From positions 1 to 49,238 of the forward strand of contig MQRK01219511.1 of the NCBI GenBank assembly GCA_001938485.1: a DNA stretch of 49,238 nucleotides, read 5' to 3'. The position numbers were made by a program. Source of the DNA: Girardia tigrina. Lineage: Eukaryota. Shown here in pieces: positions 18,001 through 23,917 of this stretch (within the stretch, counting starts at the first letter, position 1; every line of letters starts with the position of its first letter).

Positions 18001-21000
18001 CTGCTCAATACAAAGTTTGATTTGTGGAGAACATAGTCAACCTTTTAACGGTTATCCATCATGATCTTCACAGTTGCACGGAAGTTTAGAAGTTTTTAGA
18101 AGTGGAAGTCGAATCAAAAACCGAGAGAGCAATAGCATGGGGATATTTGAAGACATTGGTGTATGAATCGCAGCAAGTTTGGCTTACTGGTATCATAGTT
18201 GATATTTTGAAAATATTTCATGATTTGCAAAAGCATGTATAGCTTAGCAACCTAATTCTACCAGAGGTAATAAGCAATAGAGATAAGGTACTTAGTAAAT
18301 TAGACTTTTTATCCAAAGCCCTCTATCCTGGTGGAGAGGAAGAGAAATTATAGCCAACAGGAAACAGAAACTCCACTTTAAGAGCTGTCAACATGAATGT
18401 GCTAACCACAGTAAATCATGATGCGGTGCGCCTCGAAATTGTACAATCGGCATATAATTATCTTATAGAGTGGTTTGATGTGGATCAAGAAGTAATCCGA
18501 GACATGTTAGCTGTTTTGCAAACAGCATAATTCAAAGCATTTATTATGGAAGAAGTGAAAATAATATGTTTGTTTCCAGAAGAATTCCAGGCTTGGAAAT
18601 ACTTTACCCACAATGACGTTGAAAACTTTGCTTCAGCTCTGCAGCGGTGTAATTTAAAAAGTAATATTGTCTTAGGAAACACTCACTCCTTACATCATGC
18701 TTGCAGAGAGACTTGTTTCTTTATACAACTTGAATTTTTAATCACATCGCATGAACATCTCAGCTGAGAGAGCCATCTCTTCCATCATGATCGGAATGAA
18801 TGACGAGGGGACATGTCTGTTTGATCCTCGCAGTACTGTGGTAGAGTTTTTATGGGTTGAAAAAAGTCGAGAAAGAAACCAAACCCTGGGTATTTCTTTA
18901 GAAAGAGACTTTGTTGCAAATTCTTTTTCCAAAAAGTAACAGGAGTTGATGTGTCGTGTAATATAACACGTGTTGAGCTGTTGAAAAAATGTTATGGGTC
19001 AGGTCACTTGTGCATGTTCTTTTAAACTTGAGAACACTTGATAAACAAACTGTTCGAAATAGGAAAAACCATTATAAAAACAGGAACAAATAACTGTTAC
19101 GACACGAATACGATTATATGACACTGAGAAAACCCTACTTCACGTACAACATCCAGCACGCATGAAAACCTTGTCGAGAGTTTGAAGGGATAATCAAATT
19201 ATTCTTTCCCTTCCTTTCCTTTTCATCTATTTTTTCCCTTCAATCATTCCGTTTAATCACTTTATTATTTAATTAATTATTTAAATTAACCCGCTCCATG
19301 TGGTCCTTTTATTTAATTTATACGTAGTAATATGTTGTTTTGCATTTTCTTTTGAGTGGGATTTTAAAATAAATAATCTTTCGGATATCTATACATGCGG
19401 ACGTTTGTATTCAACTTTTGGTTATACAAGTTATTAGTTACAATTATCTATGACAATTGAGAGCAAGACTACGAACCATAATCCATAACATGAATTTAAA
19501 CTCAGCAAAGTACAAGAATGGCACGAGCTTAAAAGTCGAGGAGCATAAAATAACATGAGCTTAAAATCAGAAGAGAAAAGATGATAGGAATTGAGAATCA
19601 GGCTAAAAGGAGACAAGAGTACGAAAGCCGAAAGTGGTATAAACGAACATGAGACTGACGAGAGTGAATGTAAACTCATATGTAAACTTGAACACATATA
19701 TTAGATTTAGATAAAATAATTAATTTCAATTCAAGATTGGCAAATGCAGTGACATATTTATAACGTTGTGAGGGATTTAATGGATTCGAGTATTAAAATA
19801 ACGGCACATGGTTGACTGAGGCGAGGAACCTTCTGGAGGTGACGCAGGCCGACCGCAGAATACGAGGGGCACGCGGATTGTCCGAGGTTTACTTCCTTAG
19901 GGCTCTCTTCGTCCAATATAACTAATAACAAATATTCAAACAACAATAAAAGTTTAATATCAGCCCCGTCGGATACTGAGACCACCAGTCGGGCAATACT
20001 AGTTACTGGTTTGAACCCGAAGGCGCTCCAAAGCGCATACAATTTGTTTGTATACGTGGAGGAGTGCGTCTGTTCCCTTAACAGTGGATAATTACCGAGA
20101 GGAATACGACGTACATGGGAGTTACCATTGAACTCTAAAACTGATGGGGGCTCTGAGTCCACGAAAATGTTGTCGAGAAAGGGTAACACGACATAACTGT
20201 TTTCCACCGAAAAAAGTTACTGTATTTTGGCACATGACCATTCCAGATTGCTTGTGCTACGAGTGAATATTTTTGAAAGAAAGCCTTGTCATATAAGATA
20301 CATATTAAATACATCATGTACACCAACTTATCACCTGGTATTTAGTACGTCCAAAATTGTGCCAAAGTTATAAATCAACGTTGAATATTCACTATTTTTT
20401 CGATCCAAACTTTAATAAAAATTAGAAATGTTTCGCAAAACGTATGTTGTACAAATCTTGTTATAATTAATACAAAAAAACTTTATTCATAAAAACAAAA
20501 TAACGTTAAAACTTGCCGATTTACAAAGCAGTTCATTTAGGTAACATGTTAATAGTATCTTCCTCATCAATATCGTAATATGATAATTTCTCGTCATCAT
20601 TTAAAATAATGCTATTAAATATAAATTGAATTCTGTTGGAATCGGTGTTCTGTTTGTTCATTTTCTTTATCAATTCCGATTTCACTTTCGAGATTATAGC
20701 GTCTCTGAATACCGTCATTTTATAAGATTTTGATGAATAAACGTCTCTGAAGAAAATCGAAACACTAGGGATATGTTTCGTCTTCAAAACGACCATTATA
20801 ATATCTCCATCGGAAATATTGTAATGTGATAATGTGTCAACGTCTATCAATAATTTTCCTTGAAAAACTAAATCTAAATTATTTGTATCAAATTGTCTGT
20901 TGTCGCTATTTATTTTTTTTAACAACTCCGATTTTGCGTACGAAATCAATCCAGTTTTGGGTAAACTTAACGTATATAGTGTTGATGAACGTATTTCTTT

Positions 21001-23917
21001 GAAACTAACTGAAATATGTTCGATATGTTTCATCTTCATAACAACCATTACTGTGTCTTCATCACCGATATTATAATGCAACAGTGTTCTATCATCATTT
21101 AATAAAGTTCCTTGAAAAACTAAAGCCATATCAGAATCAAAGCCTCTTTTTACGATATCATCACGTATTATTTTCAACAACGCCGATTTCACATTTGACA
21201 CAACAGTATTTTCTGGTAAATTTAATTCATAAACCTTTAATGATTTTGTTTCTTTAAGGAAAAATGTAATGCTTCTAACACTCTTAATTTTCCTGACCAT
21301 AATCACCAAATCTCTGTCGTTGATATCGTAATACGACAATGTCTTATCATTGGCCAATAAAGTTCCTTGAAAAACTAAATCAAATGTTTCACTTTTAAAG
21401 TTTCTTTGATCATTACTCATTACCTTTTCTAATTCCGATTTTACGTAGGATATTAAATTCGTGTTCATGAATGATAATGTATAAGTTTTAGTTGAGGTAA
21501 TTTCTCGGAAATTGAGTGAAACATCATTAGATGTTATAATTTTATTGATCATTATTATCGTATCACCATCGCCGATTTCGTACGACAAGAGCGATTCACT
21601 GTCGATCAATACATTTCCTTGAAAAATCAACACCAGTATATCATAAGTTAACTTACTATCAGTAATACTCATTTTAGTAATTAATTCTGATTTTAAATTC
21701 CGTACTAAGCTATTGTAAGGTAAATTTACCGAGTACACTTTATTTGAACTTCTTTCGCTTAGAAAAAGATTAATATTTTTGTTACTGTTCTGTCTTGAAG
21801 TCATAAATACGGACTGATCATTTAATCTACTCACATAATATTATTGTTTATTTCTAAATTTGATAATTGGTATTAACACGCACATTTTAGTAAACAATAA
21901 AACTGACTCGTATCATATATTTCAAATCAATTAAAGAAAAATTAAATGATCTTTATTAAAAATCTCTGATTTCCTTGTTATTTCATTTTCATTATTATAT
22001 GATATCGTGGAACCAAATTTAGAAAATAATAAATTATTTTGTATTTGTTGATTTGTTAATAAATGTGAAATTTTAAACAAACGATTTTTGAGATATTAAA
22101 TATTACTTGAAAAATCAATAATTAATTTTAAAATAATAATTAATTAATTTTGCTTAATTAACTTGGATAAATTTTACAATTTTGAAAAAAATATATTTAA
22201 AATAATTTTTTTCAATGTTTGTTTATAATTTTTTTTGACTGAATCAATAAATTTAAAATTAGAGAAAATTTTTAGTTGATTTAGATTATTAGGCAAACTA
22301 ATTTGAAAAATTATGTATCTACTTATAATTGTCGGAAAATTCAAATTTGAAATGAGTTTCGAATCGAAATAAAAAATTACATTGTCGACGGATAGTTTAC
22401 TGAACGAGTCGATGAAAAATTGTAACAATTAAACACTTTCGTTTTGTATTATGAATTTAATAGAGTATAACTTGACCGCTTTTTATTAGCGAAATAAAAC
22501 AGCAAATACCCAGCTCTTCAAAGAAATGTTTATTAACCATAAAGTTTATGGCATAAACGAGTTATTAAATATTCAAGTGATCTGAATTTTCAATCGATTG
22601 TTCATTTAATTCACGAATGTTATAATAGTGTCAATGAAGTACATTTGTCAAATGGTCGATGTAGTTAAAAATATCAAGTTTTTTCTCAGTCTTTCCGATT
22701 CTAATTCGTAATATCTCTATCCGATGGCACCATAAACTCGTTCGGCAGTTGTGGTGTGTTTGTTTATGTATCATTTGTGTAATTAGCGTGTCTGCCACTT
22801 ACAGTATTATCAAATTCCGAAATCATAATTTAACACCACAAAATTTATTTAAATTTATTTCATAAATTTTATTAAAATATATCGATTGTTATTACTGTAA
22901 GCATATTTTAAATAAGTATTTATTTTTATCATATTTTTACTCTAAATTTTAGTTTTTTAATTTATTTCTTTTAAATTTTCAAATTAAAAAATAAAAAACT
23001 ATTCTGACGAACCTTAAATTTAAACTAACCCCTTATAATTTGAATTTTAATATTTTATTCACAAAAAGTGTCATCTACACAAACCAGTCAGGAAGAGTCA
23101 ATATGGATTACGACAAAAAATAACAGACAGAGCACATACACATCCTATATGACACCCGATTACACCACCTTATCGAGAGAAAAATACTTGTAAACAAAGA
23201 TTTGCATTTCACAGTCAAATGACACACATAATTTTCAAAGCAATTTTCATACAATTTTAATACTACAAATCCGGACCACAGAATTTTGAGATTCAATTTT
23301 CCTTTCAACGACATCATTTTATTAAAATTTTTGTGAACCGTTCTAGCGTGCAAGAATATCATTTTAATCGGTGAAAAATCTTACCATCGACGTTCTACAC
23401 CAGTATCATTCCAGAAGTGCTCTAATTCAACTGCTAATTGTATCCAGCAAACCTAGATGGCTATATCATTTTGGTTATATCATATAATCACTAGGACCCT
23501 TTATAACTAAAACACTATCACTAAGGCGCTTAATCATTAAGAATCTTAATCACTAGACGTCTATTCACGTAATCCATTAATTAATGTTCAAACAAGCCTC
23601 TGTTCTATTTTGTTAAAAATATTCTATTAGTTATTACACAATTTAATTACACAATCACAATATAAATAAATAAATAAGGAGGTGCAATTATTGATTAAAT
23701 AAATTACTTAATTTTTAAAAGTAAGTGGGATGTTTCCATTTATTTTTTAATTTAAAATTTTTCAAAAATCGTTCTCCTTTATATGACGGAGAAAAAAGTG
23801 AAATTCAGCAAAACGTCAAAAAACAACTGCTTCATAATGAATTAAAAATTTTATCAAAATTGAAAAATAAATAAAATCAGATGTTTTAATAAAAAAATTT
23901 AATATAACAGCTATATA

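What the first reader, a model, noticed from the sequence alone, without database searches (positions are those of the whole stretch)
20533..21804. Penta-UBL with A-B-A-B-C architecture and erased di-Gly linkers
Seen: repeats start at 21774, 21522, 21270, 21015 and 20763. Repeats 1 and 3 share FL.E..S.KVY..NLP.N..V.N.KS. Repeats 2 and 4 share F.EI.S...YTLS...T.LISY.KSEL. Where ubiquitin has LRLRGG the linkers read NKIITS, RKIKSV, MKMKHI and LKTKHI, so the basic spacing is largely kept but GG is lost. Known: polyubiquitin repeats are homogenised and cleaved; ISG15 and FAT10 are di-UBL units. Inference: this arose by duplication of a di-UBL module and persists as an uncleavable chain.
Basis: partly seen in the sequence, partly recalled or inferred. 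Interest (0 to 1): 0.72.

Follow-up and report, generated by a model that had tools for sequence, protein, structure and literature searches.

The report
Five-ubiquitin-fold chain gene lacking Gly-Gly
An intact single-exon gene in an AT-rich, transposon-littered eukaryotic region encodes five diverged ubiquitin-like domains joined head to tail without the Gly-Gly sites that normally let such chains be cut or attached, so it most likely acts as a permanent built-in chain, which is unusual but not a new kind of protein.

Summary
The ORF is real: ATG 21804 to stop 20533 (minus strand), 423 aa, 48.7 kDa. Five of five repeats each pass Pfam's ubiquitin cut-off alone. Ubiquitin is the nearest solved relative by sequence. 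It is also nearest by fold for repeat 4, the only repeat with a usable model (pLDDT 86.7, TM 0.85-0.94). Repeat 5 ends four residues short of ubiquitin's end.

The A-B-A-B reading is only partly supported. It holds in the N-terminal third (R1+R3 bootstrap 91%). The C-terminal halves pair R3 with R4, and whole-domain trees are unresolved.

The gene is not decaying: chance of so long an open frame is about 1e-10, synonymous sites are saturated, and pN is below pS in 10 of 10 pairs.

A second gene 7.5 kb away (12724-13047) encodes one ubiquitin-like domain that keeps Gly-Gly plus a 10-residue tail.

Function as an uncleavable chain or scaffold is inferred, not shown. Eukaryotic protein databases were closed, so distribution is unknown. 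I found no virus-like gene in the window.

The parts
20533..21804 (-). Coding sequence of the penta-UBL protein: ATG at 21804, stop codon at 20533-20535, 423 aa, 48,675 Da, pI 6.99, single open frame
   Evidence: Pfam ubiquitin E 1.1e-37 with 5 stretches
21775..21804 (-). 10-residue N-terminal leader before repeat 1. An in-frame stop lies at 21841-21843, 12 codons upstream of the ATG
21523..21774 (-). Repeat 1 (84 aa), the most diverged. Its tail NKIITS sits in the place of ubiquitin's last six residues
   Evidence: Pfam ubiquitin 26.0 bits alone
21271..21522 (-). Repeat 2 (84 aa), tail RKIKSV
   Evidence: Pfam ubiquitin 29.4 bits; residue-by-residue alignment to ubiquitin
21016..21270 (-). 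Repeat 3 (85 aa), tail MKMKHI
   Evidence: Pfam ubiquitin 34.6 bits
20764..21015 (-). Repeat 4 (84 aa), tail LKTKHI. It is the only repeat with Lys at ubiquitin's position 48 and the only repeat with a confident model
   Evidence: Pfam 37.2 bits; AlphaFold2 pLDDT 86.7 and pTM 0.74; Foldseek top hits are ubiquitin, TM 0.85-0.94, rmsd 0.8-2.2 A, 22-27% identity
20536..20763 (-). Repeat 5 (76 aa). It ends at the residue aligned to ubiquitin position 72, so the last four positions, Gly-Gly included, are absent
   Evidence: Pfam 36.1 bits
20482..20487 (-). AATAAA, a candidate polyadenylation signal starting 49 nt after the stop codon
   Evidence: That this motif acts as a signal is recalled knowledge, not tested here
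12724..13047 (-). Neighbouring paralogue: a single-UBL gene of 107 aa. Its Gly-Gly is at residues 96-97, at ubiquitin's spacing, and is followed by a 10-residue tail
   Evidence: (Pfam ubiquitin 35.2 bits); tblastn from repeats 3 and 5 at E about 4.5e-5

Best explanation
This is a real, long-maintained, single-exon gene. It descends from a head-to-tail polyubiquitin-type array whose five units diverged to 31-51% identity with each other and 22-27% with ubiquitin.

Every junction and the C-terminus has lost the Gly-Gly. Established ubiquitin biology then says the product can be neither a precursor trimmed by deubiquitinases nor a modifier activated by an E1.

I infer that it is made and kept as one 48.7 kDa string of five beta-grasp domains. 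It would act as an integral, built-in chain: a multivalent scaffold or decoy for partners that bind ubiquitin-fold surfaces. This is comparable to the tandem UBL of mammalian OASL, which is thought to mimic polyubiquitin.

Shown here: the gene, the five domains, the fold of repeat 4, the absence of Gly-Gly, and signs of purifying selection. Inferred: no processing, stability, and the chain-mimic or scaffold role.
For: Domains.
- Five of five repeats pass Pfam's ubiquitin cut-off alone.
- The best solved relatives by sequence are polyubiquitin and ubiquitin. This holds for the whole protein (5.8e-81) and for the repeat profile.
- The repeat 4 model superposes on ubiquitin at TM 0.85-0.94.

Unit size.
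- The unit is 84 aa: ubiquitin's 76 plus 5 after the helix, 2 in the linker and 1 in the first hairpin (alignment). This is a polyubiquitin-like head-to-tail layout.

Gly-Gly.
- There is none in 423 aa.

Maintenance.
- The chance of the open frame is about 8e-11. pS is 0.55-0.89 and pN is 0.29-0.43, with pN below pS in 10 of 10 repeat pairs.
- ORF GC3 is 0.30 against flanks of 0.25-0.35, so the gene is compositionally at home.

Stand-alone look.
- An in-frame stop lies 12 codons upstream of the ATG, and AATAAA starts 49 nt after the stop.
- No Pfam domain was found in 10 of 10 neighbouring ORFs.

Surface.
- The positions of ubiquitin Ile44 and Val70 stay aliphatic in 5 of 5 repeats. Position 72 is Lys in 5 of 5.
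- Lys29 is kept in 0 of 5 repeats and Lys48 in 1 of 5 (one search read). Those two lysines are the ones the ubiquitin-fusion-degradation pathway needs (PMC9703124, passages). This fits a chain that is not rapidly destroyed.

Precedents.
- Mutating Gly76 makes ubiquitin fusions non-cleavable (same passages).
- Mammalian OASL UBLs lack the terminal motif and are thought to mimic polyubiquitin (PMC8764230, passages).
Against: - There is no expression, protein-size or partner evidence.
Conservation across species is therefore unknown.
- Only repeat 4 has a usable model. The full-length single-sequence model failed (pLDDT 32), so inter-domain packing is unknown.
- The loop holding ubiquitin's Leu8 is not hydrophobic in the repeats (alignment). 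Each linker is two residues longer than in ubiquitin chains. Classical ubiquitin-binding or linear-chain-specific readers may therefore not recognise it.
- The columns invariant across repeats are core and fold positions, not a shared surface patch. That equally fits a family under fold-only constraint.
- pN/pS at saturated divergence is a weak measure.
Confidence: 0.55

Rival explanations
1. The ORF is one exon, a UBL block, of a larger spliced gene that also carries an enzymatic or other domain. OASL and USP7 carry UBL arrays in this way.
For: The window is eukaryotic and ORF-poor, with 2 ORFs of at least 150 aa in 49 kb, so spliced genes cannot be seen from ORFs alone. A GTGAGT-like string lies just upstream of the ATG.
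Against: An in-frame stop lies 12 codons upstream, a start ATG is present, the frame ends in a stop, and AATAAA starts 49 nt after that stop. No Pfam domain was found in 10 of 10 ORFs within about 10 kb. None was found in 30 of 30 further ORF pieces.
Confidence: 0.15
2. It is a precursor after all. A protease that does not need Gly-Gly cuts at the basic linkers and releases five different free, non-conjugatable UBLs.
For: The linkers keep a basic pattern (K-x-K in 3 of 4 junctions), and R3 and R4 share the sequence K-H-I. A conserved linker could be a recognition site.
Against: No such processing is known for ubiquitin-family arrays (my knowledge). The four linkers differ from each other. Repeat 5 ends without any tail to remove.
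Confidence: 0.07
3. The gene is cargo of a mobile or virus-like element that captured a polyubiquitin gene, rather than a host gene.
For: The gene is intronless and sits among transposon remnants. Viruses of several kinds carry ubiquitin or multi-UBL proteins (names).
Against: No capsid, polymerase, integrase or reverse-transcriptase domain was found in the 50 ORF pieces scanned. The only mobile-element hits were DNA-transposase domains more than 10 kb away. Viral ubiquitin-fold models are no closer (14-26% identity) than cellular ubiquitin (22-27%). ORF composition matches the flanks. No repeats flank the gene as element ends would. The only direct repeat pair that brackets it is a 69-nt pair at 80% identity, 16512 and 22976.
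Confidence: 0.07
4. It is a decaying polyubiquitin retrocopy, a pseudogene that merely happens still to be open.
For: It is intronless, strongly diverged from ubiquitin, has lost its functional termini, and sits in junk-rich surroundings.
Against: The chance of 423 open codons at this composition is about 8e-16 per frame position and about 8e-11 for the window. Synonymous divergence between repeats is at or near saturation while the frame and the fold signature survive in all 5 repeats. Core positions are invariant.
Confidence: 0.03

Closest known systems
Polyubiquitin precursors (UBB/UBC/UBI4 type)
   Same: Head-to-tail ubiquitin-family units in one uninterrupted coding exon. Ubiquitin is the nearest relative by sequence and by fold.
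   Different: Polyubiquitin units are kept essentially identical (concerted evolution; PMC10457151, abstract) and each ends in Gly-Gly for cleavage. Here the units are 31-51% identical to each other. They are 84 aa rather than 76, with 2 extra linker residues, and none has Gly-Gly.
ISG15 and FAT10 (two-UBL modifiers; recalled, and PMC8228270 abstract start in the listing for ISG15)
   Same: Diverged UBLs fused in tandem and not cut apart between the domains.
   Different: Those have two domains and a free C-terminal Gly-Gly used for conjugation. This protein has five domains and no Gly-Gly. No chain named ISG15 or FAT10 is among the 60 best rows shown in either PDB sequence search. The further 228 and 242 matches were not displayed.
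C-terminal tandem UBL of mammalian OASL
   Same: Non-conjugatable ubiquitin-like domains lacking the terminal motif, thought to act by mimicking polyubiquitin (PMC8764230, passages). This is the closest functional analogy.
   Different: OASL has two UBLs attached to an OAS-like domain. Here there are five UBLs and nothing else in the ORF.
Engineered non-cleavable linear ubiquitin fusions and chains (Gly76 mutants; UFD substrates)
   Same: A linear chain that deubiquitinases cannot cut because the terminal glycine is gone (PMC9703124, passages; PMC3507821, abstract start in the listing).
   Different: Those are true ubiquitin and are degraded through Lys29 and Lys48. Here Lys29 is kept in 0 of 5 repeats and Lys48 in 1 of 5, and the surfaces are diverged.
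USP7/HAUSP C-terminal array of five UBL domains (listing, e.g. PMC4457826 title)
   Same: Five consecutive ubiquitin-fold domains that are integral and never conjugated.
   Different: The USP7 array belongs to a deubiquitinase. No USP7 chain appears in the 60 best rows or in the 47 rows printed. No relationship was shown.
Rad60/Esc2/NIP45 SUMO-like domain pairs (Pfam Rad60-SLD)
   Same: Tandem modifier-like domains without Gly-Gly. Pfam Rad60-SLD also matches (E 3.7e-23, 5 stretches).
   Different: The ubiquitin model scores higher overall (128 vs 81.6 bits) and for each repeat. Only 3 of 5 repeats reach the Rad60-SLD cut-off of 23.8 bits.

Membership tests
Ubiquitin family domain (Pfam PF00240) | Score at or above the curated gathering cut-off (25.4 bits) | tested here: met
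   Whole protein 128 bits with 5 stretches. Each repeat alone scores 26.0, 29.4, 34.6, 37.2 and 36.1 bits.
Ubiquitin family domain (Pfam PF00240) | Beta-grasp fold | tested here: met
   Met for repeat 4 only: pLDDT 86.7, strand-strand-helix-strand-strand order, and Foldseek top hits are ubiquitin at TM 0.85-0.94. The other four repeats were not modelled usefully (full-length pLDDT 32).
Polyubiquitin precursor | Near-identical 76-residue units | tested here: not met
   Units of 84, 84, 85, 84 and 76 aa, 31-51% identical to each other.
Polyubiquitin precursor | Each unit ends in Gly-Gly directly followed by the next unit (deubiquitinase cleavage site) | tested here: not met
   0 of 4 junctions have Gly at either position, and there is no Gly-Gly in the protein.
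Conjugatable UBL modifiers (ubiquitin, NEDD8, ISG15, FAT10) | Exposed or exposable C-terminal Gly-Gly for E1 activation | tested here: not met
   Repeat 5 stops at the residue aligned to ubiquitin position 72. By contrast the neighbouring single-UBL gene does carry Gly-Gly plus a tail.
ISG15/FAT10 di-UBL family | Specific sequence relationship to ISG15 or FAT10 rather than to ubiquitin | tested here: inconclusive
   No ISG15 or FAT10 chain appears among the 60 best rows shown, of 288 matches and 302 matches. Rows beyond 60 were not visible.
Integral (type 2) UBL-domain proteins | Ubiquitin-fold domain without Gly-Gly that stays part of the polypeptide | tested here: met
   Met at sequence level. 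That the protein stays uncut in the cell is not testable with these tools.
OASL-type polyubiquitin mimic | Binding to a polyubiquitin-dependent partner through the tandem UBL | not testable with these tools
   This is an analogy only. No OAS domain is in the ORF.

The most novel reading that the evidence does not exclude
The window holds a small lineage-specific ubiquitin-like system made of two genes. One is a genome-encoded, uncleavable hetero-pentameric chain whose five units each have their own surface. The other, 7.5 kb away on the same strand, is a paralogous single UBL that still carries Gly-Gly plus a removable tail and so could be conjugated. In this reading the pentamer would be a hard-wired mimic, decoy or receptor-saturating counterpart of the chains that the mono-UBL or ubiquitin forms. 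Its alternation of N-terminal subtypes would reflect a two-domain structural period.
Probability: 0.12. Interest if true: 0.65.

Novelty: new variant of a known kind. Interest (0 to 1): 0.42.

Why it matters
Cells normally build ubiquitin chains enzymatically and take them apart again. Natural proteins that are hard-wired chain look-alikes are few; the OASL tandem UBL is the usual example.

A maintained gene made of nothing but five different ubiquitin-fold units, with every cleavage and conjugation site removed, would be a natural counterpart of the non-cleavable linear chains that laboratories engineer. It could show which features of a chain (valency, spacing, surface patches) are enough for recognition.

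It also shows how a polyubiquitin array can escape concerted evolution and take on a new role.

Its weight depends on whether it is expressed and conserved, and neither could be checked here.

Tried and rejected
Structure.
- Full-length AlphaFold2 without an alignment gave pLDDT 32 and was unusable. Both prediction jobs are spent, so no di-domain or full-length model exists.

Relatives.
- The bacterial and archaeal genome-contig collection was scanned twice. The whole-protein query gave 79 pattern stretches with 0 confirmed. The three-repeat alignment A2 gave 568 pattern stretches with 0 confirmed. The six-row alignment A1 was too variable for that tool.
- tblastn against phages and plasmids found no match.
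Distribution in eukaryotes is therefore unchecked.

Repeats and further copies.
- Tandem Repeats Finder sees no 252-nt period; the units are too diverged. blastn does see them.
- A profile of the repeats was run against 1527 open frames of the window. It found only the two genes it was built from, and the next best hit had E 0.3.

Virus-like stretch.
- 50 ORF pieces were then scanned. In one search, 8 of 10 hit transposase-type domains, 1 hit ubiquitin and 1 hit nothing. In some searches, 0 of 40 hit anything.
- Rfam gave 0 matches and ARAGORN 0. I therefore cannot point to the virus-like stretch the operators mention. Shorter or more degraded frames were not scanned.

Charge alternation as support for A-B-A-B.
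- Net charges for R1 to R5 are -3, +2, -2, +1 and 0, but they come mostly from the linker tails. The domain cores are -3, -2, -3, -1 and -1. I reject this as firm evidence.

Literature.
- Four searches for a described stand-alone multi-UBL protein without Gly-Gly returned ISG15, OASL, USP7/USP47 and plant 'polyubiquitin-like' annotations. No such protein appeared among the rows listed.
- This is not proof that none is in print.

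
Full report
**1. What is in the sequence**

On the minus strand an open frame runs 20533..21834. Its first ATG is at 21804, which gives 1272 nt: 423 codons plus a stop. These are exactly the finding's coordinates. An in-frame stop lies 12 codons upstream of the ATG, and an AATAAA starts 49 nt after the stop codon.

The window is 31% G+C and holds only 2 ORFs of at least 150 aa in 49 kb. A 423-codon open frame is expected about 8e-11 times in such a window.

The CDS is one uninterrupted frame.

**2. The repeats**

- Pfam's ubiquitin model matches the protein at E 1.1e-37 with five stretches.
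- Each unit alone passes the 25.4-bit cut-off, at 26.0, 29.4, 34.6, 37.2 and 36.1 bits.
- Rad60-SLD also matches but scores lower.
- Against all PDB sequences, the best matches are polyubiquitin constructs (5.8e-81). The 60 rows shown, of 288 matches, are ubiquitin, ubiquitin variants, and the ubiquilin and Rad23 UBLs.
- A profile of the five units plus the neighbouring single UBL again finds ubiquitin first (60 of 302 rows shown).

AlphaFold2 on the whole protein without an alignment failed (pLDDT 32). Repeat 4, with the six-row alignment A1, gave pLDDT 86.7 and pTM 0.74 with a strand-strand-helix-strand-strand order.

Foldseek places that model on ubiquitin with TM 0.85-0.94 normalised to the target, rmsd 0.8-2.2 A and 22-27% identity. 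Viral ubiquitin-fold models are no closer, at 14-26% identity.

**3. Linkers and key positions**

I read HMMER's alignment to polyubiquitin together with the repeat alignment.

- The 84-residue unit equals ubiquitin's 76 plus five residues after the helix, one in the first hairpin and two in the linker.
- RKIKSV (R2) and MKMKHI (R3) sit on ubiquitin's last six residues. LKTKH (R4) sits on the first five, with the sixth ambiguous at a two-residue gap. NKIITS (R1) follows from the repeat alignment.
- The protein has 10 Gly and no Gly-Gly.
- Repeat 5 ends at the residue aligned to position 72.
- Position 72 is Lys in 5 of 5 repeats.
- The Ile44 and Val70 positions are aliphatic in 5 of 5.
- Gly47 is kept in 4 of 5, Lys48 in 1 of 5 (repeat 4) and Lys29 in 0 of 5.
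- The loop that holds Leu8 is polar or basic.
- The columns invariant across all six sequences are fold positions: the aromatic at ubiquitin's position 13, Lys27, Leu50, Tyr59 and Ile61.

**4. Is the gene alive?**

- Between repeats, pS is 0.55-0.89 (at or near saturation) and pN is 0.29-0.43. pN is below pS in 10 of 10 pairs.
- ORF GC3 (0.30) is like the flanks (0.25 and 0.35).

Old duplications with an intact frame and an intact fold signature in every unit argue for long purifying selection and against a pseudogene. At this divergence the ratio itself is only a rough guide.

**5. The A-B-A-B claim**

The quoted shared motifs are real, but they are confined to the first third of the domain.

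| Measure | R1-R3 | R2-R4 | R3-R4 | Other |
|---|---|---|---|---|
| Whole-domain identity | 0.40 | 0.49 | 0.51 | R2-R3 0.41 |
| Identity, columns 1-36 | 0.47 | 0.53 | | |
| Identity, columns 51-86 | | | 0.64 | R2-R3 0.53 |

NJ bootstraps (2000 replicates):

| Columns | R1+R3 | R2+R4 | R3+R4 |
|---|---|---|---|
| Whole domain | 51% | 32% | 31% |
| N part | 91% | 27% | |
| C part | 2% | | 67% |

- Informative amino-acid columns among R1-R4 split 6, 3 and 1 for 13|24, 12|34 and 14|23 (P=0.077). Nucleotide sites split 12, 16 and 7.
- In exhaustive parsimony over 15 topologies, the A-B-A-B tree ranks 6th on all amino acids, 3rd on the N part, 11th on the C part and 1st on codon positions 1+2.
- The best DNA self-match is a one-unit shift: end of R2 plus R3 against end of R3 plus R4, 65% over 364 nt, E 1.3e-15. 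A two-unit shift (R2 against R4, 67% over 147 nt, E 2e-6) is weaker.
- Net charge alternates (-3, +2, -2, +1, 0), but this comes mainly from the linker tails.

The units are mosaic. A di-UBL duplication followed by exchange between neighbours fits the data. So does unit-by-unit duplication with later exchange. The data cannot choose between them.

**6. Surroundings**

A second ubiquitin-family gene lies 7.5 kb away on the same strand (12724-13047, 107 aa, Pfam 35.2 bits). Its domain ends in Gly-Gly at ubiquitin's spacing and is followed by ten more residues. It is related to the repeats (tblastn E about 4.5e-5). No further copy exists among 1527 open frames.

The rest of the window holds:
- remnants of DNA transposons (Tc1-like, mariner-like, two pogo-like, one MULE-like);
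- a dispersed repeat of about 390 bp in four copies, one of which sits directly downstream of the gene;
- nine runs of N, which I left as they are.

I scanned 50 ORF pieces against Pfam. Eight hit transposase-type domains, one hit ubiquitin, and 41 hit nothing. No viral hallmark domain appeared.

I therefore cannot locate the virus-like stretch that the operators mention. Shorter or more decayed frames were not examined.

I do not take the contig for human, given its AT-rich composition, its fairly well-preserved transposase frames and this gene.

**7. How it most likely works**

From established ubiquitin biology, deubiquitinases that process precursors and E1 enzymes that activate modifiers both need the C-terminal glycines. 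Mutating Gly76 is the standard way to make a ubiquitin fusion non-cleavable (PMC9703124, passages).

With no glycine at any junction or at the end, this protein should be neither cut nor conjugated. It should persist as a five-domain string of 48.7 kDa. This step is inference.

Uncleavable ubiquitin fusions are normally destroyed through Lys29 and Lys48 of the ubiquitin moiety (same passages; PMC3507821, abstract start). Those lysines are almost all gone here, which fits a stable product. This too is inference.

The nearest functional analogy is the tandem UBL of mammalian OASL. It lacks the terminal motif and is thought to mimic polyubiquitin (PMC8764230, passages).

I therefore favour an integral chain-like scaffold or decoy. 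I caution that the altered Leu8 loop and the longer linkers may exclude classical ubiquitin readers.

**8. Comparison and novelty**

It is a member of the ubiquitin family of domains. It is not a polyubiquitin precursor and not an ISG15- or FAT10-type modifier, because their defining features were tested and not met.

Four literature searches surfaced no stand-alone multi-UBL protein without Gly-Gly among the rows listed. The databases that would show how common such genes are were closed.

I rate it a new variant of a known kind, of moderate interest.

**9. Left unchecked**

- Eukaryotic relatives.
- Expression.
- Structure of the full protein.
- Supplements of the papers (closed, not consulted, and not bearing on the claims made).

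Noticed in passing
window 12724-13047 (-): A single-UBL gene of 107 aa, paralogous to the repeats. It keeps Gly-Gly at ubiquitin's spacing, followed by a 10-residue tail, like a modifier precursor. AATAAA lies downstream.
   Followed up: partly
window 19813-20202, 29609-30004, 30948-31330 (+) and 43407-43645 (-): An unclassified dispersed repeat of about 390 bp in four copies, 72-79% identical and G+C-richer than the background. One copy sits directly downstream of the penta-UBL gene. ARAGORN calls no tRNA in it.
   Followed up: partly
window 1032-1992, 3040-3852, 6842-8326, 33817-34473, 46256-47592 (all +): Remnants of DNA transposons, by Pfam: Tc1-like, mariner (Mos1-type), pogo/Tc5-like, MULE-like and a second pogo/Tc5-like. 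All appear broken. From the ORF layout, the minimum breaks are as follows. Tc1-like: 1 frameshift. Mariner-like: 1 in-frame stop. First pogo-like: 1 stop, 1 frameshift and an N run. Second pogo-like: 2 frame changes. MULE-like: a fragment only. The breaks were not counted rigorously.
   Followed up: partly
window 20764-21522 (-): Patches of unexpectedly high DNA identity between repeats at otherwise saturated divergence. One is a 24-nt identical in-register run between R2 and R3 over the LVFQG segment. Others are 17-19 nt runs at the same place in the R2/R4 and R3/R4 pairs. This suggests local gene conversion or a nucleotide-level constraint.
   Followed up: no
window 29031-29117 vs 41235-41321; 41715-41972: An 87-nt inverted repeat pair at 99% complementarity, 12 kb apart. 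blastn extends it to about 190 nt at 86%. Nearby is a 132-nt tandem duplication of 1.9 copies at 88%.
   Followed up: no
window 8107-42996 (nine runs): Nine runs of N, 478 bases in all. They were left unfilled. Several 'repeat' families (D1, I3-I9) are artefacts of these runs.
   Followed up: yes
whole window: No virus-like gene was found by my scans. 50 ORF pieces went to Pfam. Rfam gave 0 matches and ARAGORN 0. The virus-like stretch the operators mention was not located.
   Followed up: partly
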